Shown: one piece after another, positions 14,925 through 50,944 of the stretch
How the letters are laid out: each line of letters opens with the position of its first letter
Position numbering within the stretch: position 1 is the first letter of the stretch
DNA from: Marsupella aquatica
Taxonomy: Eukaryota; Plantae; Marchantiophyta
DNA length: 64,000 nt
Assembly: GCA_973895155.1 (NCBI GenBank)
Contig: OZ316891.1
Coordinates: 24,613,899-24,677,898, forward strand
Reading direction: 5' to 3'
Position numbers and translations under genes: made by a program
The notes under the pieces: generated by a model
Seen by the model: the letters and a program-made list of their open reading frames with translations, nothing else
What the model was told of the DNA's origin: nothing
Database searches by the model: none

Positions 14925-17900
14925 ATGCCACATGTCATGCTGCCACGTGTTAGAAAGATGGAAGCAAATCGCGTCCTTGTGAAGTCCTACGTGGAAGAAA
15001 CAGAGGAGTTTGACCTCTCCTTTATGAGCGACAGTGTAGAACTGGTACTCAAAGACTCCAGACAATTTCAATCACGAATCCCTAGTAAGTATCCATTACC
15101 TATCCTCCCTAAGTCTTAGAGGACTGGGACCATCCGGGTCCAAAGTTGGACTCGGACCATCCCAATCCAAACTTGGACTCGGATAAGTTGGACTCGGACC
15201 ATCCCAATCCAAAGTTGGACTCGGATGATCCTAATCCATCCAGGAGATTGAATCCCGATTGTAGGAGCAAGTCTAAAACCATCTCAAGTTGGACTAGGAC
15301 CATCCTAATCCAACAAGAGTTATTCAAATGTTTTAAAGATTTTAAGTCTAACATGGATGATGTTTATGATGCAGGGAGCAATCTTGTTGGTTTCAAACCT
15401 GCGATTGCACCGACCCACTGCCTAGACGGATTCTTACTAGATGAGAGATCCCCACGCTTCCGATGGGGGCTTGAGTTCTCAAGAACCCCGCTTAATAATT
15501 AAGTGCCATCAAGCACGATTGAACCTGTTTTGACCTTAAAGTGCAGAGAAAATGATAGCCTGACTTTTGTTTGCGGACCTGTGGTCTCTGTTGGCATTGG
15601 AGGGAGAGGGATGAATTTGGTCATTCTGGAGATGCACGATAGGTCTTGTTGGGTTAAAGTTAACCTTCTGTCAAAGGCATACTCCTTTGAATTCAATGTT
15701 GAATGGCACGCAAGTGGGGAATTGAGCATTTTGTCAATGGGATTTTTCCCAAAGACCTATGACACAAAGAAGTTGGTCGCCGGGGTAACTGGTATGCTTC
15801 CAGTCAACATTATGTATGGGTTTCAATATTTGAAACTCAACATGATGAAGCACCAAGGCAATTTTTCTTTTGCAACTACGTGGATGTTAAGCAATTTACT
15901 TGAGAAAGCTGGATTGTTATCGTTGGAGTCGGAGGAGCCTGGTGTTTTAATTGATAAGGATGTTGCATTTGCTCCCAAGTTTGATTTAGTCAAAGCAAAG
16001 CAATGGATAGAATCTTTGTCCAAGACAAGAAAGCTTCCAGCGGTGAATACAAACCCTGTGCCCGAGCAAGTGCCAGAGAAAGCTCCAGAACCTACAACAG
16101 AGACCGCGGGAACTACAACAGCGACCTCTCAAAGAGCAGTGGGAAAACAAAAACAAAGCCAAAGGAAACCTCCGGTTGAGAAGAAACTTCCAGTTGAGAA
16201 GCCAGTTGAGAAGCCAATTGAGAAGCCGAGTACAAGAAGCCAAGTTGAGAAGCCAATTGAGAAGAAACGTCCGGTTGGGAAGCCGAGTGCAAGTGAAAAG
16301 AGGCCAAGACAGAAGAAGAAACAGAAAATTGACAGTGCCATCATGGATGACACTACAGAAAACCTAACAGTGCATTCACAAGATGTGGACGAGCAGTTGG
16401 ACGCTCCTGAGGAGAAGAAGGTCTTAGAAGGTAGTGAGGTACTACAACAAATGGAGCAATATTATACGTTTGGGATCAATTCGATATTTTCTATTCCCGT
16501 AGAGAGTATTTTCCCTACGTTGGCAAAACTCTGTTACAGAATGTTGAATGCAGACCATGTAAAGGATGTGGCCAATTCCATGATAAGAAATTCGGGGCAT
16601 GAACCACACATAGCAGACTTGATTCCTTACACTGCAAAACATAGAAACCTAATGTAGTATGACAACACGGAATCAGATAGGAGGGACTTTGTAGCAGCCG
16701 TGAAAAAGGGCGAGGTTCAATTCCTTGCCATTAGCGGTCAACATTCGGCCAGAGCAGCCGGATGGATTCAAGAATGGGCAAACAAGGATGCCAAGCTAAC
16801 AACATTGGAAAAAAAGCTGGAATTTTGAAAGTCAAGAATATTATCTCATCGAACACCATCATCAATATTAGTTGAGCATTCAATGCAATCTAATGCGATC
16901 AATAGCACGATGGTGTTTCAGTCATGCTTCAAAAATACAGTCGTTCATGCTAGGCGAGAATTTGTGGAATGTGGAAGACCTGGCCGGCCAAAACATGGGG
17001 ACAACAAAAAAGGCTCAAGACAATCAAAAATTTCAGGTATGAAGTGTTACCGCTTGATGGGTACAATACCGTAGATTCATGCACATTCAATAGAATATTT
17101 CCACTAATATCGCCTAGTTTTGCATTGGATTGGGATGGTCCCAGTCCAAATGGATTCATGCACATTCAATAGACTATTTCCACTGATATCGTCTAGTTTT
17201 GTGTTGGACTATGATGGTCCCAATCCAAATGGATTCATGCACATTCAGTAGAATATTTCCACTGATATCGCCTAGTTTTGCGTTGGACTGGGATGGTCCC
17301 AGTCCAAATGGATTCATACACATTCAATAGATTATTTTTCCATTGATATCGTCTAGTTTTGTTCTAGACTGGGATGGTCCCAGTCCAAACTAAATCATGC
17401 ACATTCAATTAAATATTTCCACTGATACTGTCTAAATCTGTGTTGGACTGGGATGGTCTCAGTCCGCACCTGAGTGCTTTCAAACAATTGAGTTATGGAG
17501 AACTAACAGACTTTCCTTTGCAATTGTAGGATTGGTTGGCTCTTGCAAGAATGACCATGGGAAGGAAAGATTGTCGAAATGTTTACTGGTAACTATTTGC
17601 GGACAATGCTCTTTTTGAGTTATGGAGTTTGGTATGCCAGTTGTGGTTGGATGGGAAACTTCCCGATGGAGCTGGGGTAGAAGGAAATGAGAAGTCTGAA
17701 AAAGCAATTACTGTTGCCATGTTTCGTTGTTTTGATGGTGAGTTGATCTCACAATGAGACATCACAAGAATACTGACGCGGGTGAAGTCAAGAAAGGTAT
17801 TGCTAAAGAAAGATGCCTCTAATAAGTCAGACATGCCATCTATAGAGGAGTTGGCCAAAGATGTGAAGATCGTGCGGAAACTGAAATCCCTTATTGAAGA

Positions 17901-19898
17901 CTACTATTGCACCAAGGATGCAGTGAATTTCCTGGAAAATACTAATTGGGGGAAAGTAGTTGAGGTTCTTCCTACGCTAGCAATTGATTTAGAGTGTTCA
18001 GCAGGTGTCAAAGAGCCGCTGGCGAGGTCTATCTTGCCAACCTTTTAAAGCCAAATCATACGCGGGAGAGCGCAATCTTGCCGACGGCATTGACATTCCG
18101 CCTAGATGATATATACTGCCAGAAATTTGGCGAAGGATCACGTTCTCGGACCCTACCATGGGTTGCATTTTTAGCGACAATGTCATGAAGACCATTGATC
18201 CAGAGTCATTGCAAGAAGCTCCTTTGACCTGCCCTCTTGCCATTGTTGATTTTAGCCGGCTTCCGCAAAAACAATGGACTGAAGCAGAGATTCTTGTTCT
18301 CTTTGAATATATTGTGGAGCTTCCACAAAATCCCACGATTGTTGTGACGATAACAGTTCATCCTGGACAACTTGCATTGAATGTCCATGGTGCCCTTCGT
18401 AAATTGGGACAAGAGAAAGCTTTGACCATTCACATTGAGTATGGGAGTTATTCTCGAGATGATCAACTGCACCCTCATGACTCATGTTGGGGTGGGGGGA
18501 TTGAAGAAGTTATCTTTGCAAGGATTTCTCGAGATGAAGACGTCAATTGGAATGAAGTTTTCAAGCCCAACTATCCAAAGCCAAAATTCTTGTATACTTC
18601 AAAGGATGTTGATTACGAAGTATGCAAGATTGACAAGGGAAAGGGGAAGGCTAAGGAATCAGATGAGGGGACACAAAACGACGACCTAAAAGTGGTTTTG
18701 GACCCGGAAGAGGCCGTCAAGATTATGAATCCCTCAATTTGAGATAGTTGGCAGTCGCGGAGGGTGGGTTAATCCTCATGCCAAACCCATGTGGATGATT
18801 TGAAGGATTATTGAATCCTTGTCAGAATCGGGAGATTTGGTTCTAGATTTTTTCTCCGGTGGCCAAGTCATGAAGACATCATTTTTTTGCGATAGGGAAT
18901 GCTTTGTTTATTGTGACTCTCACTCTGAGAGGCATTTTGTGGAAGCTTTTGCTTCCTACCTTTGCGAGAGAGTTCCCTCACTTAAAGCCCATTGTGAATC
19001 ACTTGCTGAAAATTCTCAACAATGGGCTACCATTGTTGCGGCTGTAGCTATTGCTGTTGAATCTGATGGTTCTGAGTCTGAAGATGTTGCTGACAAAGTG
19101 GCTAAAGGCGTAGAGGCATCAGAGGAGGCATATGTCAAGAATTTGGATGATCGTGTTGGTCAAGGTGAGCCTTACGATGTAGATGATGATATTGGACTTG
19201 CACCAAACCGTTCATCTGGTTTAGATGACATCCCTTTGGGGCCCAATGAAGTTCAAGTTGATGATAACTTGGACAAGGATGATCCCAATCCAACAACGCC
19301 GGGAGGACAAATGGAGCAACTGGACGGAGCAAGGGTTGATACGTTTGATCATCTTTCTTCAACCAATCTGATCAATGAAGGCGCAACGAGGCTTGGAGAT
19401 TCAAATGAAGTTGAAACTAAAGAATTGACTCTGGGGGAGACTGGCGGATTGCCTGACATTCCCATCAATCCAGGAGGAAATGCATCAACGGCTGCTGACA
19501 ACCAGGCAGGTGCTTCAACTTGTCTTGACACACTCTTTTCAGCTTTTGATGACAAATTGGTGTTTGTTCATTCACACTCGGGGAGTCCTATTGTCCTTCC
19601 GCTCTAAAAAAAGAAAGGAAATAGAGTTGGATCAACTAGATGGAGGTCATTGGAACGCGACGCACGATGTTACGTGTGGAAAAGTGGATCAAATTGAGGC
19701 CAAGAAATATCATTGGATGCTGCTCCTTCAATTCTCAATAAGGAGGAGTATAAGAGGGGAGAATTGGGGTTGATAACTCCTATTTGGACTTCACCTTATT
19801 GGGTAGAACAAAGTACTTCAGATGTCAATTTTAAAATCCAACAGGAACTTGGTGCTGACATGATTATTGATGAATACGGATCTCTTATTTCGGAATGA
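14925..19898 (+). pseudogene. Spliced, decayed gene encoding ParB-like domain plus beta-class N4C/N6A DNA methyltransferase-like domain (transposon 1 cargo)
   Basis: ParB-like YRMLNADHVKDVANSM...FLAISGQHSARAA (about 16530-16760). Motif-IV position CPLAIVDFSR (about 18230). Motif X/I NPHAKPMWMI*RIIESLSESGDLVLDFFSGG (18771-18863). GT-AG introns near 15085-15375 and 17037-17529. Several in-frame stops. Confidence 0.7.
17074..17470. repeat. Intronic tandem repeat, ~5 x 79 bp, each with the same palindrome (TTGGACTGGGA-TGG-TCCCAGTCCAA)
   Basis: Units start at 17074, 17153, 17232, 17311 and about 17393, inside a predicted intron. Confidence 0.88.
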
Positions 19899-20382
19899 AA
19901 TTCAACCTTTGACTTTCTATTTATTCACATCAATCTAAAATACTTCTCGGTCTCATAGAATGCGCTCACCAATTAAAGTCTCCATATACGTCTATAGATT
20001 GTGAGGCTTCTAAAAACGGTAAGTAGGTTAATTTTCTTTTTTGTCAGCCATTGTCTTGTATTTTTGGACTGAGACAATCCTAATCCAAAGTTCACTTTTG
20101 GTCTTTTCTCTCCCGGGGTCCTCACTTCTTTTCTTCCAACCCATCACGCGCGAATAAGTATAGGGTTTTTTTATTGGGTTTAGTGAAATACTTTTAAATT
20201 TTTGTTGAAAAACATTAGGGTTATTTTAATCCAATTTTCAGAATGATAAGAATCATAGGGTTTTTTAAAATCAAATATGGGAATATTCTTGGAATATTCC
20301 ATTAAGTTAGGGGTAAAACAATTCCTAAAAAAAACTTTATTGACTTAACTTTTAGGGTGTTTATTCCCCCAAAACTTCGAGC

Positions 20383-21135
20383 GTGATATGGGACACCCCT
20401 TGGATTGAGGCCCCCAAGTTTTCTCTGAGAATGGTGTTTGGTGCACTTGCAGAATCGAGACCTGGTCCCGTCAAGCGGAAGTTGTTGATTTTGGACCTTA
20501 ATAAAATACTTTGGGATTCTATTGAATTCCAAAGCAAGGGCACATCCAGGAATATTGTCACCTCAAGTGGAGTGCATTGGGATAGAAAAAATGATATTAG
20601 TCGCATGTATACAGAACGACCAGGGCTCCATGAGTTTCTAAAGTTGGTTTTTGACAAATTTGACGTTGCAAGTTGGACATGTGCTGGGATACCGCGAACA
20701 ATAAAAATGTTGAACATGATGTTCACTGATGAGGAGAGGTCAAAACTCCAGTTTGTATTCACACACGTGGAAGCTTTTGACACAGGCATTCAAAGGCGTG
20801 ACATTACAAACGGAAAGGCAAATGTGCTACTGAAGGATTTTCAGGTGGTATGGAATGCATTTGGAGATCTATATGATGAAACCAACACCCTCCTTGTGGA
20901 TGACTCCCCCTTTAAGGCATTTGCCAACCCAGACATGACCGGATTATTTCCAGTGCCCTACACGCATGCCAATCATGGAGATAATTTTCTTCTAGCAATT
21001 CTTTGGCCATGTCTTGAGAAATTATCACCTCGGGGGTTTCACTTCCACAAAAATGGCATATCACGTGCGACGAAGGATAGGGTCATTTTATTGGTTCTAA
21101 GGAAAGACTTAAGAATTTTTGTAGAAGAACAATAG
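20383..21135 (+). CDS. FCP1/NIF-family HAD phosphatase-like protein (probably transposon cargo; exon limits uncertain)
   Basis: KLLILDLNKIL (motif I variant), ERPGLHEFLKLVFDKFDVASWT, LLKDFQVVW, NTLLVDDSPFKAFANP. Confidence 0.75.
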   Translation: MIWDTPWIEAPKFSLRMVFGALAESRPGPVKRKLLILDLNKILWDSIEFQSKGTSRNIVTSSGVHWDRKNDISRMYTERPGLHEFLKLVFDKFDVASWTCAGIPRTIKMLNMMFTDEERSKLQFVFTHVEAFDTGIQRRDITNGKANVLLKDFQVVWNAFGDLYDETNTLLVDDSPFKAFANPDMTGLFPVPYTHANHGDNFLLAILWPCLEKLSPRGFHFHKNGISRATKDRVILLVLRKDLRIFVEEQ

Positions 21136-22654
21136 GGTCTTTTAAATTCAATTTTGAGACTTATAAGAACATTAGCATCTTTTTAATCCAATTTTTAGAA
21201 TATTCCAAGAATATTCCAACTTTATAGGGGTTAAAAAATAATTTTTTTTCTTACATTTTAGGGGGTCTAAGGCCTAAAAACGTTGCAGGCAATGGGAGGT
21301 CCCCATATAGTGAGACCCCCGAGACTATCACATGCAAGTGACATTCGATGTTATCTTCTTCTCAACTCTCCAAAGTGGTCTCTTTTGCACATGAAGAGAG
21401 ACAAGGCAAAAAATGAGATTACTTATGATCAACTTAGCAAGAGATTTGCAGCAAAAATTTGGAAGTCACAGTTGACGCATAGTGTGTTGGACCTCAATAG
21501 CAATGAGATCCCTTGGAATGTAAAGCACCGTATATGTAGTTTACGTCATGAGGCGGAACTTGACAATGCACTTGTCAACTCACTTGCTAAATCATTTTTA
21601 GGAAAGGACTATTCATGTCTATATAGAGAAAATCCCAGACACTTTTTGCGGGAGATTATAGCCATTAGGAACAACATTTAGTTTGACATGGGTACATTTA
21701 GTTCCGTGTCGGTAATCACACATCAAAATGTGGTAATATACCGAGAGTGTGCATAACTAAAACAGGCTTCTGCGCTATCACACCTGTCTCCTAGGACTCA
21801 ATTTGATTGGGTATCCTCCTTTTACCTTGGGGGTAAGGGTTTCATACATTATACCCTTATCAGGTTCAGCTCTCTCATGCCTGCACAATAAATCGAGCCA
21901 AGAACACTTAATAATGTCAAAATTGAAACCATGGAATTTATACTTGGGTGGTAAGTTGCAAGGGTTTTTCACATATTACTACTAATTAGCAAACAGAAGT
22001 CAAGCTAGAGTTGGGTCTAGGCTTCTAGAGTGAAACCTCTAGACTCTAACTCTAGGGCCCCACCAAATGTATGCTTATGGAGAGCAGAATTGAGAATCTA
22101 ATGTATGGTACATCAAAATGGATCATGCATGTTGATTTTTGTTATCATTCTATTGCCATTCAAAGAATGAGCATTCAGGCTCGTCATTCAATTCAAAAGA
22201 CAGACATGTTGTGCAGTCTCATTGGTAGAGAGTATCCTGAGTTAGGTTCCTCATTTCTTTGAGGGCTAGCTATAGTCCCCAAGGGTTCACAGGCCATGCC
22301 CCCCTAGAGTAAGCAGGCAAGTGAATATTGAGAAACATATGCTGGGGACTAGATCCTGACACGAACACAAAGATTTAAATCAGGGAATCCCGAGCCAGGT
22401 TTGGAGCCAGCTTTGTGAGGGGCTTGTGTCGCATAACCTTTAATGAAAATACAAACTAAGGTCACAAGAAAGGTTAGAGGACATGGATGGATGCAAATCA
22501 ATCTCAAGTTCTAGATGTCATTCGGCAAGTCTGTCGACTCCCTTCGCTCGAATTCTTCAGACTGGGCTGGATAAGAGGCTCCATTCCAAAGGCAAATGCA
22601 CGGACTAGCTGTACCAAACTCTGTCAAATTAAGGTCAAGTATATGGGTACTTAC

Positions 22655-25600
22655 ATGTAAGTCGTAGTGAGATGATGAACGCAGATGCACGAAATCAGCT
22701 TGGCCATTTCAATCCCCGGACAAATATGAGGCCCAGAACTGAATGGCATGTAACTGTATGGTTTCGGAGTCACCTGCAGAAGTTTCCCAAATCGAAAGAG
22801 GTCGATCAATTCTACTGAGTGAAAGTCTTCAGGCCGGTCAGGTACACCAACTCATTGAGGAAAACAAATTAAATCTGTGATCGTTTAGTTGTCAGTAACA
22901 TCATATCTTTCAATCAAAACCTGACTGAGGACGAAGGTAGTAGTACAGTACTCACATCGAACCGATCGGGGTTGAAACTAACATCGGGATAATTGCCAGG
23001 ATCCGTGTGAATGAAATTAGTCAACGGGGTCACGCTCCAGCCCTTTGGTATTAGATGACCTGCATGAATCAATAGACTTTTATGATCTTAATATGTGAAC
23101 GTGGCACGAGTTTCTTCTCGAACGTATAATTTCATGACTCGCTCATAGAGCTACTACATGTTTTTGTCGAAGAATCAGCTTATATTTCTTGAGAAGCGTG
23201 TGCTGGCAAAGGCCTTTAGAGCTTGATTAATCTGAACGTACCTACATTGAATCCGAACCTAGATATGCATGAAGCTGACAAATTTTGCTGGCTGGGTGCG
23301 TGGGAACTCAAACGCTATGCATTAGCAATTAATCCCATTCAAGAACAACACGCGTAGCTTGCAATAGTAGGATCAGTCACCTTCAAGCTCAAATCACTCA
23401 CCCTCAAACTTAACGTCTTCGGTTGCCTCCTTAAAAAGAACAGGGAGGAGTGTAGTGGTTCTGTGGACTTCGTTGAAGAACTGCATCCGGTAGTTCAGAA
23501 GTAATTATTTAAGTATGCCAATCGCTTGAACTTTCTAGAGTTCTGGTCAACTATGCATCTAATTCTATGTAGGATTGTAGCGGAATTTACCTGCCTACCA
23601 TGCGCAAGCATGGACCCGGTCTCTAGATAGCTTCATATTCGACCAAAGCCCAGTATAATGGCAATCCACTTCGTTTATAACTTCTAACACCCGCAAGCAT
23701 GGACCCGGTTTCTAAATAGCTTCATATTCGACCAATGGCAATCCACTTCGTTTATGACTTCATATTAGACTAGTGTTCATTATATTTTCAGTACACTAGG
23801 GAATCAACTTTGTTTGGTTGTCCAGGGATAATCATGCATGTTACCTTACGAGTGTAAACCATTTTTCTCATATCGTCCCAAGTAAGCCTGGGCCCTTCTA
23901 CGGAAGGGTCCTTGTTTTTGAGAATCTGTTGGTGCTCAGCCTGCTCACATAGTATGAGGGTTAGTATTGTAGAAGATCTGAGAAGAATAGAAGAGATAAA
24001 AGCTGAGAACGACATTGTGCTATAATATTTCAACAAAATACCATTTATGACGTTCAAATATTCTACTGCCATTTCAAGCTCCAGACCTCTAGATATCCAG
24101 GCCATGCCAGATTCAAACCGAGAAGCAAAGCATGCTCCGTACCTGGCAACGGCGAAAGACCTCCGGATAGTCAATCAGATACTTAAGGATCCATACAAGA
24201 GTCGTCGTGGTAGTGTCAGAAGCAGCGAAGTTTATCAAAAACATGTTCTCGGCAAGCGTGAAATCATCGAGATGCTTCAGCTCTTCTAGCCCTTCAGGGT
24301 CATCCCGAGCTGCCAGTAGAGCTCCGAAGAAAACGCCCTCGAAAGTCTTCTGGCCCTTCGTCGACTCAATCAGAGTTTGGAAGTATGCTACCAAATTTGC
24401 CCGTGCCTGATGAAGACAACAACCAATCAATCAAATGAGGTGTTGAGGACAACACAAATGCACAGATTCGTTCCCGTCCAAAATTATCATTCTCGACCTC
24501 GCTTTCGAATACTCCGGGAATGATTTCAGATTTGACAAAGTCTTCGTTGTTGAAATCTATCTACCTGTATCTGACTTAGCCTTCAGTTGGCCGAGCAGTG
24601 TTCAAGAGCCTCCGGCAAGATCTCAACTTCAAGTCCAAACTTAGCCTCCGGCAGGATTCAATTCCAAGTCCAAACTGCTGGCCAAGCATCCGACAGTTTT
24701 CGTACCTTCATGCCTGTGCTAAACGTCGTTCCTGGAAGATTCACTGGCATTGCTGTCAATGTCCGCGAGGCCTTATTAAAGTCTTCCAAATTCTTCCTTC
24801 CTTGTGGTGAGCTACTACTGTTCCTATCTCCGAATAGGACCCAGTTGGCAGCATCCCACGTAAGCTGCCAGTTGACATAAACGTCACATCAGTGCCAAAG
24901 TGAAATTTCAAGAATCTTAAGAGAATAAAATTAAGACGGGAGAGTTAATTTGAAGAATACCGCAGACGAATTGAACAAGAAGAGAAATCGCACAGAAGTA
25001 CTAAGCACTCGAAAAAGAAAACGAATGCGCTGAAGAATTATAACGAAAATGAATTGAACAGAGTGATTAAAGAAAGAAAGCTCTAGTAAGGATTGAAAAT
25101 GAACGGCCCACTTTTTGCACTGCACCACGTGCAACAACAGTCCCAGCGCGCACCCACGAGGCCATGTGTTCGAGAAGAATGCTCTCAAAACTATGGACCT
25201 GATCCCGGAGACCTTCTGGACCAACAGATTTCAGGATCAACTTCTTGACAGACATATGCCGTGGACCCTCCTGGAGCATAAACGTCTCGGGTCCAATGCT
25301 TCGCTTGAAGCTTTCGGGGTATGCCCGTTTGAAGAGGTGAGGGTTCGTATTGACGAATTTGACGAAATCCGGAGTTGTTCCACATATCGTTGGCCGTAGA
25401 AATACGTTCGTTTTAAACGTATTTCCATACCTGCATTCATCAAGTCACAACTTTCAGCCAAGTGCTGAAGATGTTCTAAACATCCCCACTTGCTACCAGT
25501 TCCTTTGTAATTTGCAATTGAATCGCTGCCCCCCAATAGTCTGACATCAACCCGAGCTGTTGACCATTCGAAGCCGTGGCGCTTAGATATTTCAGACTAG

Positions 25601-32620: not shown

Positions 32621-32734
32621 GGACTGGTCACTTTGATGTGAATGGGTGTTGGGTGTTGCGATTGAAGTAGACTGGTCACTTTGATACGAATGGTTGTTAT
32701 GATGAAATCTAAATGCACCTTGGTTTCTATCACT

Positions 32735-36161: not shown

Positions 36162-36382
36162 TGTCACGTCGTCAGCCTTGGCCTTACTCCGGGCTTCGGC
36201 TTAAATAGGGACATACTTTGTCAAAATGAGGGTTCGGGCAGGGAGGGAGGCACGGAATGCACCCAACTTACATAAAATAGCGCTAAGTGCGCATATTGTC
36301 ATATACAAACACCTCCTAGGTATGATTTGTGTTCCGCCACCAGAACGTACCTCAATCAATAGCAGGATTGACCCTGGCTTAA

Positions 36383-36538
36383 ACCACCACTGTCCATATA
36401 AAAGGAGAAGTGTCCAAGACTTCTCACTTTTTCACAATTGTCTCCTCTAGGGTGAGACTTTGCTCCACAATTTCAGGAAAATGGTTCTAAAAATGGTGAA
36501 ACCTGGTGGATCCAGGTTTTGTCATGGACAATGGGGAT
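36383..36538. mobile_element. 156-bp MITE inserted at a TTAA site in the family B LTR
   Basis: Absent from the solo copy. TTAA on both sides. Imperfect TIR ACCACCACTGTCCAT / ATGGACAATGGGGAT. Confidence 0.8.
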
Positions 36539-39811: not shown

Positions 39812-41318
39812 TCAGAGGAGATAGCAGTGGCGACTAAGAGAGAACGAGAGAGTTGGGGTCAAAGCTGGCGCGTGGACTGATGGACTGGTGCACTACAAAG
39901 GGTCAGCTCCCTTTTTATACCCTGAGGGCTTGTCGATCACCCAACGTCTCCTTGTTGCCCATAGGATGAACCGTTCACGCTTGTAGTGTACTGGCCACTC
40001 CGCCGGTCTGAGTCAGCGCATGTTAGTGGCCGCTTCCCTAAGTTTGTTATACGGACCCGAGGAAGGGGCCCCTCCACGCTTGCAACCCGGGCGTGCGAAT
40101 GGCGACACGCCGCCAGTCCAAACATGAATTCCCCTTATTGACTAATGATTTCTTACTTCATAATGGTTACCTAAATACTATTGTTATGCTAATAAGAGCA
40201 GCCTAAGATACCCCTAACACGCGTGCTAAGCGCGGTCCAGACTGAATTACTGATTACTCGCCGTACCGGCAGCGTCACACGGGCTCCTCGGCCTCAAGTC
40301 ACACTTTGTGAGTGCCTCTTGCTCCTCCCTAACCTCTCTATTCCTTTCAGAGTTGTGCAATGCAAGTGAATGACATCCCCGAATGTTCTTGCTGTTGTGC
40401 ATGCTTGCTTGGTTACTAGTTTAGGGCAACTCTGACACTTAGAATTTTTGGCAAATTTTTAAAAACTCTCGGGAACACAGTTTGCGAAGGTGTTGCGATG
40501 CGCATTTGTTCGCAAACCCCTCGCAAAGTCTATCATGGACTTTTTCCATTTCAATTTTCCGATGCCTTTGCGAACAAATGCGCATCGCAAACTCCATCGC
40601 AACGCCTTTGCAAAAAAATGGTTTGCAAGTTGCCATGCTTATAGGTTCGCAAATTTGAATTTTAAATTTTTTTTGGGTCGTGTTTAGTAGTTGAGGATTT
40701 AGGCGTCACTTGTGGCTATAGGGTATGCTTAAGGGCAAATTTAACCAATTTTAATTGGTTTTATGCATGGCAGTATCGGAGGTACAAAAGGAAGATATCA
40801 AAAAAGCATATTGAGGTGGCAATAGAGCATGGACGAAAGTAGCTCTTTGCGATGGTAGATGCCGAGTTGGCTACTGTAAGTGTCTAAGTGTGAACCATAT
40901 GATTAGCATGCAAACATTGTGAGTGACCCTTTATGTCTTGCGGAAACTAATGATATGTAATGGATGCAGGATTTGGATGAGCCTGAGGGGTCGGGTGCTG
41001 ATGTGAGCAGTAGTGATGATGATGAGGGGGCTACTCCTGGTACTAGTGGTGCTCGGGGGGGGGAGTAGTCGTGAGGTAGGTTCTTCCCACCGTGGTAGTG
41101 GTGGTAGTCGTGTGTCATCAGCACACGTTGATGACCAGGGGGAGGAGGAGGACCCTGAGGATGAGGAGGAGGAGTAGGAGGGGCAGGAGGAGCCAGAGGA
41201 GCAGGAGCGCCAATGGCCATCACGCACCCGTCACCAATAGGATCCCCGGAAGGATAAGGGCAAGAAGCCAGCCAAAAAGCCAACCAAGAGGAGCCGCAAG
41301 AGCCCATTCTAGTTATTT

Positions 41319-41766
41319 TGTAGAGATACATGCATGAGAGTGACTTGTCATGCCGGTGTTGAGCATAGACGATATTCACAACGGCAAGCCCATGAACCAT
41401 CCAACGCACAATAGTCGACACAGAGAGATACGTGGTTCACCTCCACATGAGGCTACATCCACGGGAACACACCAGAGCTTTACTGCACTCTAGGCCGACC
41501 GGCCATACCAAGCATCCACAGCACAAGCTCTCCCTATCTCTCAACTAGCTCCGAAACAATGAGCCTAAGTTCCACCAGGGTCTGGCATCAGCCCTGGCTA
41601 TATGCACAACAGCACTACCGCTAACCTTAGCTAGGTCCTAACTTGAGTTAGCCTAACTGTGGTTAGCACAAGAGTCACGAGACTAGAGCAATATCTAACA
41701 AATCTCTTGTCTTGGGGACTAGACTAAATGCTACCATATGGAATCCTCAGCGGGAAGTTCTAGACA
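41319..41766 (-). mobile_element. Putative 3' LTR of the copia element
   Basis: TG...CA bounded segment downstream of pol, with an AGGGGGAG purine tract nearby (about 41782-41789). Boundaries tentative. Confidence 0.45.
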
Positions 41767-41897
41767 ATCACCAAACCAGGTCTCCCCCTAAAAACCACAA
41801 GGGTTAACTAAGGGTTAACTAGAACTAAGCCGTAGCCAAACAGGAATGAGTAATCCATATACAAATAGTCACACATTGTTAAATAACTCTACTTGCA

Positions 41898-44446
41898 CTA
41901 TAACTGCAAAACCTGCAAAGTAGCACGATGTCTTGAGAAACTCTCCAAAGGAATCACTTTGGTAAAGGCATCAGCGAGATTAAGCTTTCCATCAATCTTG
42001 ACTAGCTCAAAAGTTTTATCAGACACTGCTTGCCTGATAAAATGGTACCTGATATCAATGTGCTTCACCCTGCTATCCATCACCTGGTTAGCAGCCAAGT
42101 GAAGAGCACTATGACTATCATAGTTTAGAGTCATTTTACCATGCTCTAAACCCATCTTCGCGATCAACTTATCCAACCAAATTGCTTCCTTTGCTGCTTC
42201 TGCTGCTGCAACATACTCTGCTTCTGTAGTAGACTGAGATATGCACTTCTGCAAGGTAGATTTCCAACTGATACATCCTCCTCCAAGAGTGTATACAAAC
42301 CCAATTGTAGACCTCCTTGTATCCAGACAGCCTCCATAGTCAGAATCTACATAGCCAACTATCGTTCTATCTGATCTGTTATCAAATAGTAATCCATAGT
42401 CCTGTGTTCCCCTCATATACCTAAGAATCCATTTCACAGCTTCCCAATGTACCTTCCTTGGATTTGACATGAATCTGCTGACCTTGCCCATCGCTAGGGC
42501 CAAGTTAGGCCTAGTACAAGTCATCAAATACATCAGACTGCCTACTGCCTTCTCATAAGGAATTTTAGCCATCAGACCTTTCTCCACAGCATCCGTAGGA
42601 GAGAAAGCCGATGATAATTTGAAATGTGAAGCTAAAGGAATACTCACTGGCTTACAGTTCTCCATGTTGAATCGTGCAAGTACTTTCCTCGCATACTGGC
42701 CTTGACTCAAGCACAACTGTCCAGTCTCAGAGTTCCTAAAAATCTCCATCCCTAAGATCCTCTTGGCCTTACCAAGATCCTTCATCCTAAATTCAGCACT
42801 CAATTTCGCCTTGAGACTGTCAACCTCAGATTGATCTTTAGCCACAATCAACATGTCATCCACATAGATCACCAGAATGATGAAACCAAATACATCATTC
42901 TTGACTGATTTTGTATATACACAAGGATCATACACCATCCTTGTAAAACCTTGAGCAAGCATGAAATCATCAAACCGCTTGTTCCACTGTCTGGGAGACT
43001 GCTTCAATCCATATAAGGACTTGAGCAATCTACAAACTAAGTTCTCTTGGCCCTTCTTCATAAAGCCTAGTGGTTGTCTCATGAAGATCATCTCTTCCAA
43101 GTTGCCATAGAGAAAAGCAGTAACAACATCCATCTGATCCATCACCAGACCAAAAAACACAACAAGCTGACACAAGATCCGAATTGTGGAATACTTAGCA
43201 ACCGGTGAAAAGACCTCATTGTAATCCACTCCTTTCTCCTGAGTGAATCCCTTGGCAACAAGCCTTGCCTTGTAGATCTTGTCTCCACCCTCTGAAGGAC
43301 TATCCTTCAACTTGTAAATCCACTTGCTGTCCACTACTTGCTGACCTCTTGGAAGCTCCACCAGCTCCCATGTCTTGTTGTCACTCAAAGATTGCAACTC
43401 CCTCTGCATTGCTGCATTCCACTCATGCTTCTGCTCTGAAGCACAAGCCTCACTATACGAAGAAGGCTCTCCTTCTTCCAAGATCAAAGCCATATCATCT
43501 TCATCAGGTGCAATGTCAATATCATCTAGCTTAGATGAGTCTGCCCATTGACCATACCTGGTAGGAGCTCTAGTAGAACGACTGGAAGTTCTTCTAGTAG
43601 ATGACTCAGGCTGATCTGCTGTTGCTGTTGGTTGAATTTGAGGTACCCCAGCAACAATCTGCTCCTCTTGTTCCATCACAGGAACCAGCTCCAAGCCCGG
43701 AGCGTCTCCATCTCTCCTGTCATGAACATCATCATGACTAATCTCCCCCTCAACCTCGTCCGGAATGGGAGATTTCCCCTTGTCAGTATGGGAGTCCTGA
43801 GAACTCTCCCCCTCCTTTGATGATCTAGATTCATTAAAGGACACATCTCTACTGACAATTAGCTTACAGGTTACTGGATCCCATAACCTATAACCCTTCA
43901 CACCTTTCTGATAACCAAGGAAAATGCACTTCTTTGACTTGGACTCCAGCTTGGATCAAAGCTGGGAAGGTGTAAGCACATAAGCATTCACATCCAAAAA
44001 ATTTCAGATGTGAGTAATCTGTTGGACGCCCGTACCTCATTTCAAATGGCGTCTTGAATCCAATAGAACTGGATGGAGAAAAATTTACCAAAGAAGCTGC
44101 AGTGTTGACAACTTCAGCCCAAAACTCATGTGGTAAGCATGATTGACTCAACATACTCCTCGAGCGGTCCAATAGTGTTCGGTTAAGTCTCTCAGAAACA
44201 CCATTCTACTGAGGAGTATAACTTGTTGTGAGATGGCGGGTAATCCCCTGCTCCTTACAATACGTTCCAAATTCCCCGAAATTGTATTCACCATCGTTAT
44301 CCGATCGAAGATATCTCACCTTATTACTAGTCTGATTCTCAACTTGGGCTTTCCACTCCTTAAAAGTGACAAAAACATCAGACTTATTGTGTAGAAAGTA
44401 TATCCACACATACCTTGAGTAATCGTCTATGAACGTGACATAGTAT
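41898..44446 (-). pseudogene. pol: Ty1/copia pol (integrase core - RT - RNase H), 5'-truncated by a DNA transposon insertion
   Basis: YYVTFIDDYSR, LRSDNDGEY, KARLVAKGF, QMDVVTAFL, SLYGLKQSPRQW, YVDDMLI, GYVDSDY, KHIDIRYHFIR, in IN-RT-RH order. Confidence 0.95.
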
Positions 44447-45078
44447 AGGGGTCGTGTACTTCATCAGTTATCAATGAGTTTCATCAGTGACTGATATCAG
44501 TCCAACACCGGAACTCAGCGAATTAGCTGAGATCAATTCTTCTGGGGCACAACCCAATCCACAACCCAATCGCAGTCCGCGCCATTGTCGGCGCCTCTTT
44601 GAGGTTGGATCGGGTACTTTACTTTGACCATTTCTTATGTCAACTGCCTCTCTGACATTAAAGGAGAATATAAAGTTTCAATCTTGGCGGCCTCTCTGAG
44701 ATTTCCTCGAAGTTCAGTTGAATCTCAGCGAGCCCTGCCGAGATTCAACTGAAATTTGAGGAAAAAAAACTTCTCACACAGGGTCTTCGATATATCATGG
44801 GGTGTCGCTACTAAATCTCAAATAGGATCCATACAACACATCGTACAACAGAGTCCATACAACACGTCCCTTTCAAAGACTCATCTCAAAGACCCTCACC
44901 GACTTATCCAAGAGAGCTCGACATGACATTGAAAAACAACACGGGGTCCAGCGTAGAAAGTACAGGACAAGAACATAACCTTTGGAGGAAATTTTTATTT
45001 TACTTTGTATACAACATGTTGCTCTGTTGTGAAATATTCACAAATTGAATTCACAAAGGCAATCCATCAATCCTCTAT

Positions 45079-45903
45079 CTACAAACTGATCATCTGGCAG
45101 ATTAGGTCTACAATAATCTTTTGTCGTATAAGCAGTACATGTTTAGGGTCAACCGCCAATACAGAGTCGCTAGAAAGACGCTCCATGTACATTATGACAT
45201 ATACTCCACAATTGTAACTATCGGGTTGGGCTGGAATAACGTTGCGGACGATGCGTTGCCATTGTAATGACGATAAGTGGGGACAACTGCGCAAGCGGGA
45301 CAGGTCATGGAGAAACCGACCAAAATTCACCAAATCGTCGCATTCCGATGCTTCGCCTCCAATGGGATCGAGCAAATGTAGTTGCTGCAAAGTAAAATCG
45401 ACCACAGCTAGTACCCAATGTTTTGGCCTGTGGATGGGGATTAGAATGAGGTCGAATGAAAAGACTTCAATGCCCTTCACAAATGCCAACGCTGCGTTGA
45501 AGCTGTATGCAAGATGCGTCAAGACATTGTAAAAATGTGTGGGCAAAAGCATGCATTTGGGTTTTGCAATGACCTCTGCTCTACGCTCCAATAGAGGAAT
45601 GTAAGCATTGATGATGTCACAAGTGAGCCATTTTTTTGCCCTCAAGCATTTGAAATCTTTTCTCCTCAATTTTAAGTCGCCGAGGCTGACTAGGACTTCA
45701 TCTTGGTCCCTGATGGAGTCCAATGCTTCTTTGACTATGGTCGCAAGTATGGCGGGTTGATGTTGTTGTGCAGGCACCCCCTGATTCGGTCGTTGGTGTA
45801 TAGGCACCCCCTGATTGACTCCTTGTTGGGCAGTCACTACCTCGTCGACTGGTTGTTGTGGCTCAGTTTGCTTCTGAGCTGCAATGAAGGTTAATTCACC
45901 CAA
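45079..45903 (-). CDS. ULP1-like (peptidase C48) SUMO protease domain
   Basis: WLTCDIINAY, LILIPIHRPKHWVLAVVD, LLDP and QPDSYNCGVY; His/Asp/Gln/Cys catalytic residues present. Confidence 0.88.
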   Translation of the reverse strand: MGELTFIAAQKQTEPQQPVDEVVTAQQGVNQGVPIHQRPNQGVPAQQHQPAILATIVKEALDSIRDQDEVLVSLGDLKLRRKDFKCLRAKKWLTCDIINAYIPLLERRAEVIAKPKCMLLPTHFYNVLTHLAYSFNAALAFVKGIEVFSFDLILIPIHRPKHWVLAVVDFTLQQLHLLDPIGGEASECDDLVNFGRFLHDLSRLRSCPHLSSLQWQRIVRNVIPAQPDSYNCGVYVIMYMERLSSDSVLAVDPKHVLLIRQKIIVDLICQMISL

Positions 45904-46439
45904 AAATTACTCTTCGGAATTGGAGCTTGACAAACTTATGCTTGCATGGTGAGTTTGGGGACTATCACTATCACTTCCTACCGAGCTACTCTCATCCGAT
46001 TCAGCCTCTTCTGCCCTATCATCGACAAATTTGAGAGTCTTCCTTGTTCTCTCTTTCACAAAATGAGCAACTCTTTCTTCATGATATGTATCAGCGTAGC
46101 ACGGTAGGCTTGACTTATCCGGAGAGAATAATGTTGAAGCTTCCTCCCAAGCGAGCTTCACAAGTCGTCTGTCCTGTGTGTCCCATTCCTCGGTTGCCGA
46201 CTTGGTGGTCCTGTCGGGAACTGCTACTAAGTTATACTTAAATCAAATCATGTATTGCGCCGAAATAGACGGATCACAAGAACAAATTTGAGGCAAGTGA
46301 GCCCATGTGGACACCCCAGATAATCCATTGAGTTGCCTTTCGAGATAGATCTCAGAGAGGCTAGCCAAGATGTATTTTTGTCCCTCCAGACGCATCTAAG
46401 GCCCTACGTGGACTTGCCAGTAGAAGTTGACGTGGCCAG

Positions 46440-46810
46440 GCCACCTGGGATTCATCTGGGCGAGGCCCGCCGACATGCATCTCAGAGAGGCCTGCTGAGA
46501 TGGACTTGCATGGAAATCTGAATATGCTCGGGCCAGATGCGATTCCTCTCGGCGAGGCCCGCCAACATGCATCTCGGAGAGGCCAGCCGAGATGGACTTG
46601 CCTGGAAATCTGAATATGCCCGGGCCAGATGCGATTCCTCTCGGCGAGGCCCGTCGACATGCATCTCGGAGAGGCCAGCCGAGATGGACTTGCCTGGAAA
46701 TCTGAATATGCCCGGGCCAGATGCGATTCCTCTCGGTGAGGCCCGCCGACATGCATCTCGGAGAGGTCAGCCAAGATGGATTTGCCCAGATGGAGAGCCA
46801 TCTCGGATAG
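46440..46810. repeat. Tandem repeat, ~4 x 92 bp, two CTCGG(A/C)GAG...CCGA palindromes per unit
   Basis: CATGCATCTC at 46474, 46566, 46658 and 46750. Confidence 0.9.
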
Positions 46811-46841
46811 TCCGCTGAAATACTATGGGACAATATTAAAA

Positions 46842-49800
46842 TCATTGAAGGGAAACGGTAGTAAACTCACATGAAGGCTTTTTCTTCTTGCGCTTTTCTG
46901 GATTGGATTTTTGACGATCCACTGCCTCCTCTTGCTCCGTTAGAGGCACTCCAATGAACTCTGTCATCGTGTGTTCCGCATAAGATTTGAAGTACGGATA
47001 GGATTCGGTCCCAACGACCATCCGCCCACAATTCTCACCAGCCTTAAAGATAGCCCCAAAGTGTGCATTGAACATGACAACAGTTCCCCCTGGCTTAGTT
47101 GTATATTCTATTATACATTGGAGTGTAGCTAGAGACAAGGTGCCACCAAAATCATCAATGGTCTCATTCTGACCCGTTGTATAGTTAGTTAGCCCGTTCC
47201 TCAACTTCATATCAAGCTCGACACTGATTGGCTTCACGTCATCCTTTGGGCATACCTCGGCAGATGATTTAAATCCCCAAAGGTCCAGCTTGAGATATTC
47301 ACTCTGGACGTACAGAACAAAGTCAGTGATGAGTCTTTTTGAGTACAAGTCACCGAAAGAACATAAGACAAGAATGGAGTTAAATCTATAAGACTTACCC
47401 GCTTTTGAGTTGTGAAGTTGAAGGTGGGTGTGGCGTTCCAGATGAAAAAGGTGTCTTTCAGCACCCAATTGGTCTCTTCGTAATTGAGACTGTCACAAAG
47501 TACTGTGGAGTGGGCAATCGAAGCACTGTGCACTATGCCAAACAATCCCTCATCATCGAGGAAAACTCGCGCAAAATCCTCAACCCGACTGAGGTCGTCT
47601 GGCCGGAACAAATTCCACAATGGGATGTTCCCATCCACGTGCATGCGGGTGTCTGATCCCATTTGAATCAGAATCAGATTTGCACCAGACCTTGCAGGCT
47701 TCCCGTTCTTTAGCCAGCCTTCTGCAGCCAAACCACCCCGCCTAAGCTTTCTGCACCAGTCTCTAAAACGGAGTACCACAGCCGATTCTTTACTGTCATT
47801 GGCAGCGTCAAAGTAAGTTTTGAAAAGATACGGAGACCATTTAAAATAACAATGCCTGGGCGGGGAAGAAAAGTTATCGGCGCTTGAACGCCAAACTCCA
47901 ACCACCTCTGTGCCATCCGACTCTGGTTTGCCTTCAACGTCCTCTTCGTAATTTGGGCCATCCGTTGGGGCCTCATGTTGGATTGTCGTGGGCGGAACCT
48001 CTATTGGGCTGGGCGGGGGTTATGGTATGGTGCTAGGCGGGGGTTGCTCTATGGGGCTGGGCGGAATGTCTTCAAGCTCAGTGTCACGTGCTTTTGCACG
48101 GCGAGGTTTGGGCCTCGTTGTTTTGGTCTTTTTTGCAGCCTTTGTCTTTGGCCTTGAGGATAATGGCATCCGTTTTGGCGCCGGAGTATCAGACTCACGC
48201 CCCTCTTGTTCGTCTTCTCCTTCGTCCTCTACCCGTTTGTCTTCTCCTTTGTCCTCTACCCGTTCATCTTCTCCTTCGTTATCTACCCGTACGTCGTCTG
48301 AATGATCCCCTCCTTGGGTTGCGTTCTCTCCCTGGGATGCGTCATGCTCTTGTTGCTGCTCGCTTTGTTGGTCTAGAGGCTGGTCTACCATTGGCTCTGT
48401 CGAAGGCTACACGCTTTGTTGCTCCACTTGCTGGTTGCCTTGTTGTAGTGTAGCCGGCTCTATCGTTGGTTCTGCAGTTGGTTCTATAGCCGACTCTATT
48501 GTTGGCTGTGGAGCCTTCTCTATAATTGGCTTTGAAGCCACTTCTACAGCCTTGCTTTTTACAGAACCTGGTTCCTCCGGTATCTCCTTCATACCTGGAT
48601 AGATTGCAAAGCAATGGGGTTATTGATCCTAAGCTTCTCTGCGAGCCTCGCCGACATGACATCCAAACACTTGACATTATACTTCATCTGCAAAGGTCCG
48701 GACGACATTTGGCTGTTCTTCTCAACGAGCCTCGCCGAGATGAGATCCAAGGGTTCGAACGAGATGCGACTGAAACTTGTTTGTTCTTAGCGAGCCTCGC
48801 CAAGATGAGATGCAGTCTATCTCAACAACCCCAAAATTGGTTCAGTACTATGTTAGCAAACCCAGCCAAGATGTAGTTCCAAATGAAACCACTATGCAGT
48901 GCGAAAGGAATCGAGTAATACCTGATGTTTTTCTTGGACTGGTTAGCGAGTCAGACTTACTGATGTCGCTCAATGGTTCCTTCTCAACCTTCCGTTCACC
49001 TTCTTTTCTGGCCTTCTTCCTGTCATAGGCAGGGTCAGTTGGGATAAGGGTCTCCACCTCTGTTGCCTCCGTTACTGAGTCTGACAGTTGTCGCAACTTT
49101 GTTATATCGTAGTAATTACTAGGTTCCTGTGCTTCTTTGAGCAGGTCTGCACTATCCTTCTCGGCAACCTCAAGAAAATTGTTCCAATTGTCATACTCCA
49201 TGTACCATGGGCAGTTCCTCCGTTCCCAATCCGAGAATACTCTGCCATGAGGCATGCGACCATCACATGGATACATGCTAAGGCTACCTGTAGCCTCCAT
49301 CCAAGATCTAATCGCCAATGGTAGTTGTTTCAACATCGTTGCATTCATGTTCTCCTGATGTATGAGAAATCTTGTCACGCACCGCTTTGTTCGCTTAATC
49401 CACGCTTCCCGAAACGCCAATTTGGTATTCCCTTCATTCCAAATGGCACCGCCTACTTTTAAGGATTTCTCTTGCACATAAGATCGGTAAAGCTTTCTAT
49501 AAAGCTTAGCAAAATTCCTCTCGCGTTCCGCTAAAATTGCCAGGCTGGTAGGCCTTCTCAGCAAAATTGGTCAACAAGATACAACCAACGTAGTCGATGT
49601 AACACCACATTGACCACATTGCTAGCCATGATCTAACTGCTGAATCACTATTGCTACGTGGATGGTGATACCTACTCCTATCTTCCTCCATTCCAAAATG
49701 AGCCTTCAAGAGTTTTAATCTGCACTCTGCAGTTAACCAAGCCCCAGAAAACAAGCAGATCCTGTCCAATCCAACCTGCACATTCATGACACCCTGCTTG

Positions 49801-50944
49801 GCCTCCTTTGCCAGCTTGTGATAGAGCTGTCGACATGCCGGGATGAATTCCAAACCATTGGCTGAATTCACGCAGGCCGCGAGCTTGGGGAACTTAGCGT
49901 CCCAGCTCTTGCACGCAGCAGTAATCATTGCCTCAGTCTCATGCTCAAGTCTCTTGGCATTCCACGGGTGCCCACGACCTGCGTCTTGTGCCATTTCCTT
50001 TGAAATATTGATTCGCCCCGCTTCAATGTTTGACCAGCTCATGATGTACACAGCTGCCTCTTTTGTCATGTTCTTGGAGTACCAAGTCTTCCCGTGGCCA
50101 CGATTTTGAGCCTTGAGGAAACCATCCAGCGTCTCCTTGGACATAAGCAAACTGTACTCCTCCAATGGAGTGTTTAACAGCTTCGCCACCCGATCGGCGT
50201 CATTGAACCATGACGTCCTCATGACAGTCGCGCTTATCCCGGACACGGCAAAGAATGTTCTTAGGTCTAACATTCAAACAGGGCAATCTTTGACAGATTG
50301 CCAATAGGGTATTCACACAAGGGAAACAATATTGTATACCTGTTGTTGCAAAATGTGAGTTACTTACGAGTTCAGAGCGTGCATTGCTTGCTCAACCTTC
50401 TTGAATCCGTCCTTTCCAGCGTTCAAAAGAGAGAATCTGACACACGGATGGTACTACGGTTGATCTAGAAACTCCTCCGCAACTGTAGACCAAGCTGTGT
50501 ACCTATGGTTTCCGTCAAAAACCCAAAACATCTTGTGCTTGAGCATTTTGAAGTCCTCTGACGCATCGCACTCTTGCTCAAACTGCTCATTGATTTCAGT
50601 CCACAGCAAGTCCCAATAGGGCTTGAACTCTGCCACTGTCCTCGTCTCCCCTGCTTCATTGAACTCAGTGATGTGGAACTCGCTGAGCTTACAACATAGC
50701 CGCTCTCTCTGAATCCTTTTTTTAGTTTGACCACTGACTCATCATGAAGATTCTTGACGGCCTCCATTGGCATGAGCCGGCATAAGGGGATCCGGGGAGG
50801 ATCTTTTTCAAACTTCATCTCATACTTGGAGACGATTGACTCCCAAGCTCCCTTCTCTACAATATTTGCTAATTCCGCTGCTCCTATTGGCTCGAACGAT
50901 ATTTGCTTTGGCTCAAACTTCCTCCTTGAGTCCACTGACTCCAC
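46842..50944 (-). pseudogene. Spliced, decayed gene encoding ParB-like domain plus degenerate beta-class DNA methyltransferase-like domain (transposon 2 cargo)
   Basis: ParB-like RIPLCRLMPMEAVKNLHDESVVKLKKGFRESGY...FWVFDGNHRYTAW (50454-50800). C-terminal ANLILIQMG, ARVFLDDEG and LQCIIEYTTKPGGTVVMFNAHFGAIFKAGENCGRMVVGTE. Confidence 0.65.

What the first reader, a model, noticed from the sequence alone, without database searches (positions are those of the whole stretch)
14925..50944. Two unrelated DNA transposons each carry a ParB-like + beta-class N4C/N6A methyltransferase gene divergent from the transposase
Seen: gene 1 (14925-19898, +) has AISGQHS and NPHAKP..IIESLSESGDLVLDFFSGG; gene 2 (46842-50944, -) has VFDGNHR and IIEYTTKPGGTVV..CGRMVVGTE. 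Each is head-to-head with a different transposase type, has introns, and is followed by another enzyme cargo. Known: DGxHR/GxxR marks ParB/Srx folds; HPxxKP..GDxVLDPFxGSG is the C-terminal motif X/I of permuted beta-class amino-MTases; ParB-MTase fusions occur in phages; Marchantia has prokaryote-derived 4mC MTases. Inference: a transposon-borne self-recognition or self-marking module, possibly a source of plant 4mC/6mA enzymes. The DPPY/SPPY position looks degenerate (DFSR, IQMG), so the domains may be catalytically dead binders.
Basis: partly seen in the sequence, partly recalled or inferred. Interest (0 to 1): 0.88.

Follow-up and report, generated by a model that had tools for sequence, protein, structure and literature searches.

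The report
Liverwort transposons carrying ParB pseudo-methylase genes
Two broken jumping genes, likely from a liverwort, each carry a second gene that joins a bacterial-type ParB domain to a DNA-methylase-like domain lacking the usual catalytic motif, and each is studded with its own long palindrome that this protein likely binds to keep its element active; a similar gene pair is already reported from algal transposons.

Summary
Observation confirmed: all quoted motifs are present, and both genes are spliced, lie head-to-head with a transposase-like gene and sit in multi-copy elements. Gene 1 is well supported. Its family has 135 clusters; the named members come from Riccia, Calypogeia and Diphasiastrum. 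A relative folds as ParB/Srx, and four Riccia relatives share the C-terminal beta-class methyltransferase SAM-binding half. No family member has DPPY/SPPY (0 of 138), and none has ParB's GxxR arginine (0 of 65). Gene 2 has the same layout on weaker evidence and no detectable similarity to gene 1. New here: each element has a private 23-25 bp palindrome, 39 and 32 sites, mostly non-exonic and absent elsewhere in the window, recalling VANC target sites. Best reading: a site-specific, probably non-methylating helper protein that keeps its own element active. The architecture is already published for Ectocarpus Sola1-1_Ec32 (PMC12477816). A link to Marchantia 4mC enzymes is unsupported. Both copies here are pseudogenes.

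The parts
8623..9251 (-). Element 1 transposase, continuation (HGN and KCxxC..H motifs; Sola-like by recalled motifs). Cut at about 8622 by another insertion; the catalytic part is not in the window.
   Evidence: Sequence; ORF; no library hit
9257..11579 (.). LTR-type insertion (TG..CA ends, 5-bp target duplication AAGAT) that splits transposase 1
   Evidence: other copies lack it (loose ends at 11580); inverted match to 36162-40279
11580..12866 (-). Element 1 transposase, 5' part (weak Transposase_23-like stretch, CCKQKCC)
   Evidence: E 0.036; X2 contig depth 455 against 51 on the flank
12906..13930 (.). 27-bp tandem array holding 27 of the 39 copies of element 1's 25-bp palindrome TTGGACTNGGAYSRTCCNAGTCCAA; upstream of, or in an intron of, the transposase gene
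14925..19607 (+). Gene 1 (pseudogene copy). Exons about 14925-15084, 15339-17036, 17530-19607: unknown N-terminal domain, Lys-rich linker, ParB fold, helical region, methyltransferase-like domain, acidic tail. Palindromes in both introns.
16436..17002 (+). Gene 1 ParB/Srx-fold domain (SGQHS in place of GxxR)
   Evidence: Family profile; fold of relative P0082
18230..18962 (+). Gene 1 beta-class amino-methyltransferase-like domain; motif X/I half at 18765-18902 (DFFSGG); no DPPY
20356..21132 (+). NIF/FCP1-like phosphatase ORF (cargo; region also shared with a more abundant repeat)
   Evidence: PF03031 E 1.3e-13; Riccia P0110 joins a ParB-family piece to NIF; depth
22013..22067 (.). Approximate right end of element 1; short high-copy hairpin-like sequence
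   Evidence: Depth drop and loose ends; sequence
45082..46242 (-). Ulp1/SUMO-protease-like cargo of element 2 (HW..D and Q.D..NCG motifs present; one in-frame stop upstream of the domain)
   Evidence: PF02902 E 1.7e-20
46349..46777 (.). Cluster of 9 copies of element 2's 23-bp palindrome ATCTCGGMGAGNCTCKCCGAGAT between gene 2 and Ulp1
46842..51082 (-). Gene 2 (pseudogene copy). Exons about 51082-50368, 50232-48922, 48594-47399, 47303-46842: ParB-like domain (DGNHR), helical middle, acidic linker, methyltransferase-like C-terminus. Three palindromes in intron 2.
51138..53873 (.). Divergent spacer of element 2 with 15 copies of the 23-bp palindrome, partly in roughly 150/306-bp repeats
54310..57480 (+). 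Element 2 transposase (GCM/WRKY-type Cys/His motifs and Mutator-type D..D..DxxH..E pattern, by eye and recalled)
   Evidence: multi-copy depth; no library hit

Best explanation
Each transposon carries a helper gene whose product has a ParB-type domain and a methyltransferase-like domain without the usual catalytic motif, and this protein likely binds the element's own palindromes to keep its family active, probably without methylating DNA. Shown: the two-gene divergent layout, multi-copy status, the conserved ParB-plus-methyltransferase fusion in the gene 1 family, missing DPPY/SPPY and GxxR in that family, and private palindromes concentrated outside exons. Inferred: a dimer reads the 23-25 bp palindrome, probably through the helical region after the ParB fold. 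Inferred: the pseudo-methyltransferase grips DNA or binds SAM. Inferred: occupancy blocks or reverses host cytosine methylation, or recruits activators, as VANC proteins do in Arabidopsis. Both copies in this window are dead and would depend on intact copies elsewhere.
For: ParB fold: AlphaFold model of relative P0082, pLDDT about 84-97 over residues 91-230. The top five VIA rows are all ParB/Srx-fold (SerK Z 7.4, rmsd 3.4, 92 aligned; KorB 7.3, 2.6, 90; PadC 7.1, 2.8, 92; Srx 6.4; SbnI 6.1), and the top four Foldseek rows are Noc (E 0.004-0.009). Fusion conserved: 4 of 139 stored proteins carry motif X/I behind the ParB domain; family profile against phage beta-class methyltransferases, probability 96%, E 4.9e-9 over 77 columns. 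Catalytic loss: 0 of 138 with [DSN]PP[YFW], 0 of 65 with the GxxR arginine. Palindromes: element 1, 39 sites, 1 exonic; element 2, 32 sites, 4 in my exon intervals; exons are 57% of each element; 0 cross-hits and 0 elsewhere in the window. Core motifs occur 31 and 20 times against a Markov mean of 0.4, maximum 3 in 200. Co-amplification: in run X2, contigs on transposase 1 and gene 1 have depth 364-455, those on Ulp1, gene 2 and spacer 127-172, single-copy flanks 51. Most laid depth lacks three of gene 1's frameshifts and two of element 2's stops. Precedent: VANC binds motifs in tandem repeats in introns and intergenic regions (PMC5735166, passages).
Against: No binding, expression or methylation data. 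No contig bridges transposase and helper gene, so linkage in other copies rests on matching depth, which the tool says is no copy number. The palindrome consensus was derived from the same sites, and tandem arrays inflate the counts. The methyltransferase N-half could not be aligned to the phage profile or folded (pLDDT under 50), so the position of the catalytic motif is by eye, and only about six family members cover it. The SAM-binding half (DFFSGG type) is conserved in all four relatives, which an active divergent enzyme would also show. P0113 (1040 aa) runs on without a methyltransferase hit. Gene 2 has no relatives in hand: its ParB scores are probability 2-4%, and the gene 1 family profiles miss it in a six-frame scan. 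ParB Z-scores are under 8 and Foldseek E-values above 0.001.
Confidence: 0.5

Rival explanations
1. The helper is an active but divergent amino-methyltransferase that is guided to the palindromes and writes 6mA or 4mC on its own element (self-marking).
For: The SAM-binding half (motif X/I) is conserved in gene 1 and 4 of 4 Riccia relatives that reach it. An Asp ends the candidate catalytic strand in gene 1, P0082, P0083 and P0129 (by eye). Proposed for the Ectocarpus protein (PMC12477816, passage).
Against: 0 of 138 family proteins have [DSN]PP[YFW]; SPPY to APPA abolishes activity in N4CMT (PMC8885841, passage). Residues after the Asp vary (FSR, LIA, LTS, FAR). Gene 2's motif I is also altered (MFNAHFG).
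Confidence: 0.2
2. The helper is a structural cofactor of transposition that binds the palindromes and organises the element for the transposase, like CACTA TnpA or the Harbinger Myb protein; or the palindromes are transposase sites.
For: Two-gene divergent layout; ParB-fold proteins organise DNA (established knowledge); Harbinger elements carry a second DNA-binding ORF (PMC10741241, passage). The TnpA parallel is recalled.
Against: The sites lie internally, in introns and the divergent spacer, not clustered at the one element end I could place (about 22050). A methyltransferase-like domain points to an epigenetic role.
Confidence: 0.2
3. The genes are captured passengers without element-specific function, and gene 2's resemblance to ParB and methyltransferase is partly chance.
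For: Gene 2 scores are weak, and genes 1 and 2 show no similarity beyond shuffles (methyltransferase parts: 23 of 25 shuffles reach the score).
Against: Two separate weak signals in gene 2 fall in the same order as in gene 1, each above 25 of 25 shuffles. The gene 1 family is conserved across liverworts and a lycophyte, both elements have private palindromes, and the same layout occurs in a brown alga.
Confidence: 0.1

Closest known systems
Accessory gene of Sola1-1_Ec32, Ectocarpus (PMC12477816; passages seen, figures and supplements not seen)
   Same: ParB-like plus N4C/N6A methyltransferase protein (1104 aa) on the strand opposite the transposase in a large DNA transposon; proposed to bind and modify its own element; similar proteins cited for green and red algae (those two papers not held).
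   Different: Here a land plant, two apparently different transposase types, catalytic motif absent, and element-private palindromes, which the passages I saw do not mention. Sequence homology to the algal protein was not tested.
VANC proteins of Arabidopsis VANDAL Mutator elements (PMC5735166; passages)
   Same: Transposon-encoded accessory protein; family-specific motifs amplified as tandem repeats in introns and intergenic DNA.
   Different: VANC motifs are 8-9 bp and not long palindromes; the passages seen describe no ParB or methyltransferase domain; VANC function is shown experimentally, here only inferred.
Phage ParB-methyltransferase fusions (M.PhiCh1-I, Wolbachia phage WO) and beta-class enzymes M.RsrI, M.MboIIA
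   Same: ParB N-terminal to a permuted amino-methyltransferase; the motif X/I half aligns.
   Different: The two phage proteins are about 400 aa with DPPY and DGxHR/GHxR; the plant proteins are about 1200-1400 aa, spliced, with extra domains and without DPPY.
MpDN4MT1a/b of Marchantia (10.1101/2021.02.12.428880; passages) and rotifer N4CMT (PMC8885841; passages)
   Same: Prokaryote-type beta-class methyltransferase fold in a eukaryote; liverwort host lineage for MpDN4MT1.
   Different: These are active SPPY enzymes used by the host; MpDN4MT1 has no extra domains. No evidence of descent from this family.
Fungal DUF3723 (PF12520), a conserved Starship cargo gene (10.1101/2021.12.13.472469; passages)
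   Same: ESM Atlas features of the family's ParB region match fungal clusters at 0.95, including DUF3723 clusters (31% and 78% of members).
   Different: Feature similarity only; no Pfam DUF3723 hit among 72 members; methyltransferase fusion in DUF3723 not examined.

Membership tests
ParB/Srx superfamily (gene 1 family) | ParB/Srx fold | tested here: met
   Confident model region; top five VIA rows and top four Foldseek rows are ParB/Srx-fold; Z under 8
ParB CTPase clamps (gene 1 family) | GxxR nucleotide-binding arginine | tested here: not met
   0 of 65 aligned members; mostly SGQHS
ParB/Srx superfamily (gene 2) | Fold or significant profile match | tested here: inconclusive
   DGNHR present; hhalign probability 2-4%, above 25 of 25 shuffles; no fold run
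ParB CTPase clamps | CTP binding, loading at a palindrome and sliding | not testable with these tools
   Needs biochemistry
Beta-class amino-methyltransferases (PF01555) | C-terminal motif X/I (SAM-binding) half | tested here: met
   Gene 1 family probability 96%, E 4.9e-9; PF01555 below the gathering cut-off; gene 2 weak, E 0.006
Beta-class amino-methyltransferases (PF01555) | Catalytic (D/S/N)PP(Y/F/W) motif | tested here: not met
   0 of 138 family proteins, of which about six cover the region; absent from both window genes
Beta-class amino-methyltransferases (PF01555) | Complete Rossmann fold | tested here: inconclusive
   pLDDT under 50 for that part; N-half not aligned
MpDN4MT1-type plant 4mC enzymes | TSPPY motif, no additional domains | tested here: not met
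MpDN4MT1-type plant 4mC enzymes | Common clade in a tree | not tested
   MpDN4MT1 sequence was not returned by any search
Sola transposons (element 1) | DDD transposase, TIRs, 4-bp target duplication (PMC10741241, passage) | tested here: inconclusive
   Catalytic part and left end missing from the window; label rests on recalled motifs; no library hit
Mutator-like elements (element 2) | WRKY/GCM1-type zinc finger plus DDE core, long TIRs, 7-12 bp target duplication | tested here: inconclusive
   Motifs by eye; no Pfam or PDB hit; no TIR found, both ends cut by LTR insertions
VANC-like anti-silencing systems | Family-specific motifs in non-coding tandem repeats | tested here: met
VANC-like anti-silencing systems | Protein binds the motif and removes methylation in trans | not testable with these tools
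   No expression or methylome data

The most novel reading that the evidence does not exclude
Early land-plant DNA transposons of at least two superfamilies run private ParB/parS-like address systems. Each family pairs a ParB-fold pseudo-methyltransferase with its own 23-25 bp palindrome, loads there and spreads to shield the whole element from host methylation, convergent with VANC. The fungal Starship cargo DUF3723 is the same kind of module.
Probability: 0.25. Interest if true: 0.8.

Novelty: new variant of a known kind. Interest (0 to 1): 0.5.

Why it matters
The ParB-methyltransferase helper was proposed for algal transposons but, in the passages I could read, not tested. These elements add named candidate target sites and two orthogonal protein-site pairs in one genome, which makes self-recognition directly testable by swap experiments. 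If the helper counters silencing, it is a second, bacteria-derived route to sequence-specific anti-silencing in plants and a possible epigenome-editing tool. If it methylates despite lacking DPPY, it is a new kind of active site.

Tried and rejected
No whole genome was held, so copies could not be rebuilt. Word-index searches found no relatives of gene 2's ParB part (440-1400 aa only) or gene 1's methyltransferase N-half (299-954 aa only). Metagenome and viral locus scans found none. The first fold, from 5 sequences, failed (pLDDT 36) and was not searched. A PDB sequence search with the family profile gave only Lys-rich noise. Pfam, PHROGs and NCBIfam name neither ParB domain; one member hits DndB at E 0.04. 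No RNA holder was listed. No TIR was found for element 2. No Atlas result was obtained for gene 2 or for the methyltransferase part. In some searches the first piece of gene 2's ParB model was in the wrong frame; one search corrected it and the score fell (20.7 to 18.3), and the shuffle control was not repeated. The phage set was picked partly by a DPPY-like pattern, so its DPPY count is circular and not used. CpG depletion did not clearly separate these elements from other repeats. Ten paper searches listed no land-plant report and also missed the Ectocarpus paper, so they are weak evidence of absence. Five look-ups (four papers) were not held. bioRxiv supplements were closed, and PMC12477816 supplements were not opened; they may describe motifs or further families. 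Rejected: a source of Marchantia 4mC enzymes; a recent shared origin of genes 1 and 2.
Full report
Setting. The window is repeat-dense plant DNA; no whole genome was held. The closest named relatives of gene 1 are from the liverwort Calypogeia fissa, so the host is likely a liverwort (inference).

Observation. Gene 1 (+) has exons at about 14925-15084, 15339-17036 and 17530-19607. Gene 2 (-) has exons at about 51082-50368, 50232-48922, 48594-47399 and 47303-46842 (placed by hand). Each lies divergent from a transposase-like gene and is followed on the same strand by a NIF-like phosphatase (E 1.3e-13) or a Ulp1 protease (E 1.7e-20). Both copies have stops and frameshifts.

Elements. Contigs of four public runs show raised depth across 11580 to about 22070 and across 44550-58546. 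In run X2, single-copy flank contigs have depth 51; those on transposase 1 and gene 1 have 364-455, and those on Ulp1, gene 2 and the spacer have 127-172. Three frameshifts of gene 1 (near 17008, 17994, 18167) are missing from much or all of the laid depth in most runs; run X1 shows no such difference at 17008. The stops at 50456 and 55363 read as sense codons in 4 of 4 runs. So these are decayed members of families with better-preserved copies. Depth is no strict copy number, and no listed contig bridges transposase and helper gene. Transposase 1 is split by an LTR-type insertion at 9257-11579 with a 5-bp duplication and cut again at about 8622. The labels Sola-like and Mutator-like are by eye and recalled; libraries gave only Transposase_23 at E 0.036.

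Gene 1 family. A profile of five relatives found 135 clusters at E up to 0.001. An AlphaFold model of P0082 from 72 sequences is confident over the ParB region. The top five VIA rows are SerK, KorB, PadC, sulfiredoxin and SbnI (Z 6.1-7.4), and the top four Foldseek rows are Noc (E 0.004-0.009). None of 65 aligned members has the GxxR arginine, so CTP-dependent clamping is doubtful. Four of 139 stored proteins, all Riccia, carry the beta-class motif X/I half behind the ParB domain. Many others are fragments that stop at or before the conserved intron, and one 1040-aa member lacks a hit. The family profile matches 42 phage methyltransferases at probability 96% over 77 columns, and UniRef names P0122 a DNA methylase N-4/N-6 domain protein. 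None of 138 proteins contains [DSN]PP[YFW], though only about six cover the region, and the N-half neither aligned nor folded. Riccia P0110 joins a family fragment to a NIF domain, so that cargo link recurs. The Atlas places the ParB region near fungal clusters including DUF3723 at 0.95, a Starship cargo gene (passages); this is a lead only.

Gene 2. No relatives were found. It keeps DGNHR. Its ParB match is weak (probability 2-4%). Its C-terminus hits phrog_3008 at E 0.006 and the phage profile above 25 of 25 shuffles at probability 14%. It is not detectably similar to gene 1, so the two helpers are deeply diverged or independent.

Palindromes. Element 1 holds 39 copies of a 25-bp palindrome (up to 4 mismatches), 38 outside exons. 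Element 2 holds 32 copies of a 23-bp palindrome (up to 5 mismatches), 28 outside my exon intervals. Neither occurs in the other element or elsewhere in the window. Core motifs exceed a Markov expectation of 0.4 by 31 and 20. The consensus came from the same sites, and tandem arrays inflate the counts. The placement in introns and spacers matches VANC target sites (PMC5735166, passages). I saw these motifs before reading earlier scan notes.

Mechanism. Most likely (0.5) the helper binds its family's palindrome as a dimer and keeps the element active without methylating it. Binding and effect are inferred. Rivals are an active divergent self-marking methylase (0.2), a transposition cofactor (0.2) and a passenger (0.1).

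Prior art. Earlier scan notes pointed me to PMC12477816. Its passage describes a 1104-aa ParB-like plus N4C/N6A methyltransferase gene opposite the transposase in Ectocarpus Sola1-1_Ec32, cites similar proteins in green and red algae, and proposes self-modification. My ten paper searches had missed it. PMC4738411 (passages and section 8) lists eukaryotic amino-methyltransferases, including inactive ones in DIRS1 elements, but not this fusion in the parts seen. bioRxiv 10.64898/2026.05.21.726589 (passages) covers retrotransposons and does not mention ParB. MpDN4MT1 has TSPPY and no extra domains, so the link to plant 4mC is unsupported. Other papers seen as passages: PMC1702500, PMC10853773, PMC10741241. 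Scan notes list 16 ParB-related findings in this same genome; they are unchecked and not counted as support.

Verdict. A real feature and a new variant of a known kind: a land-plant, motif-degenerate version of the algal ParB-methyltransferase helper, on two transposase types, with private palindromes. Interest 0.5.

Noticed in passing
window 30692-31795 (-) and 23791-26277 (-): An intronless trichodiene-synthase-like terpene synthase (TRI5, E 1.1e-14) lies upstream of a spliced cytochrome P450 (E 3.6e-9) on the same strand, a possible terpenoid pair between the two elements.
   Followed up: partly
window 1-8622 and 58547-64000: Nested copies of an LTR-type element with a long coiled-coil ORF of no Pfam family (877 aa at 2-2632) and a gag ORF at 63273-63998; very high depth.
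   Followed up: no
window 9257-11579 and 36162-40279: Two related LTR-type sequences in inverted orientation (80-91% in the listed arms) with a coiled-coil ORF inside the repeat; Gypsy-type pol fragments at 33645-36003 (by eye).
   Followed up: partly
window 20200-21500: Depth is several- to about ten-fold above gene 1 in all four runs, and many contigs skip parts, so the NIF region is shared with a more abundant repeat.
   Followed up: partly
window 22013-22067: A 55-bp hairpin-like sequence with 56 and 43 loose-ended contigs in run X2; a possible terminus or MITE.
   Followed up: no
window 40493-40590: A 35-bp inverted repeat with a 28-bp spacer, left of the Copia-type insertion at about 41500-44450; it could belong to element 2's lost left part.
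   Followed up: no
P0003 residues 265-460 (relative of window 16436-17002): Atlas features match fungal DUF3723 clusters at 0.95, suggesting that the Starship cargo DUF3723 holds a ParB fold; the Starship paper has no mention of ParB.
   Followed up: partly
window 15347-16000 (+): A conserved N-terminal domain of about 200 aa in gene 1 relatives (WxxxGExSxxxMGFFP) with no family hit; not folded successfully.
   Followed up: partly
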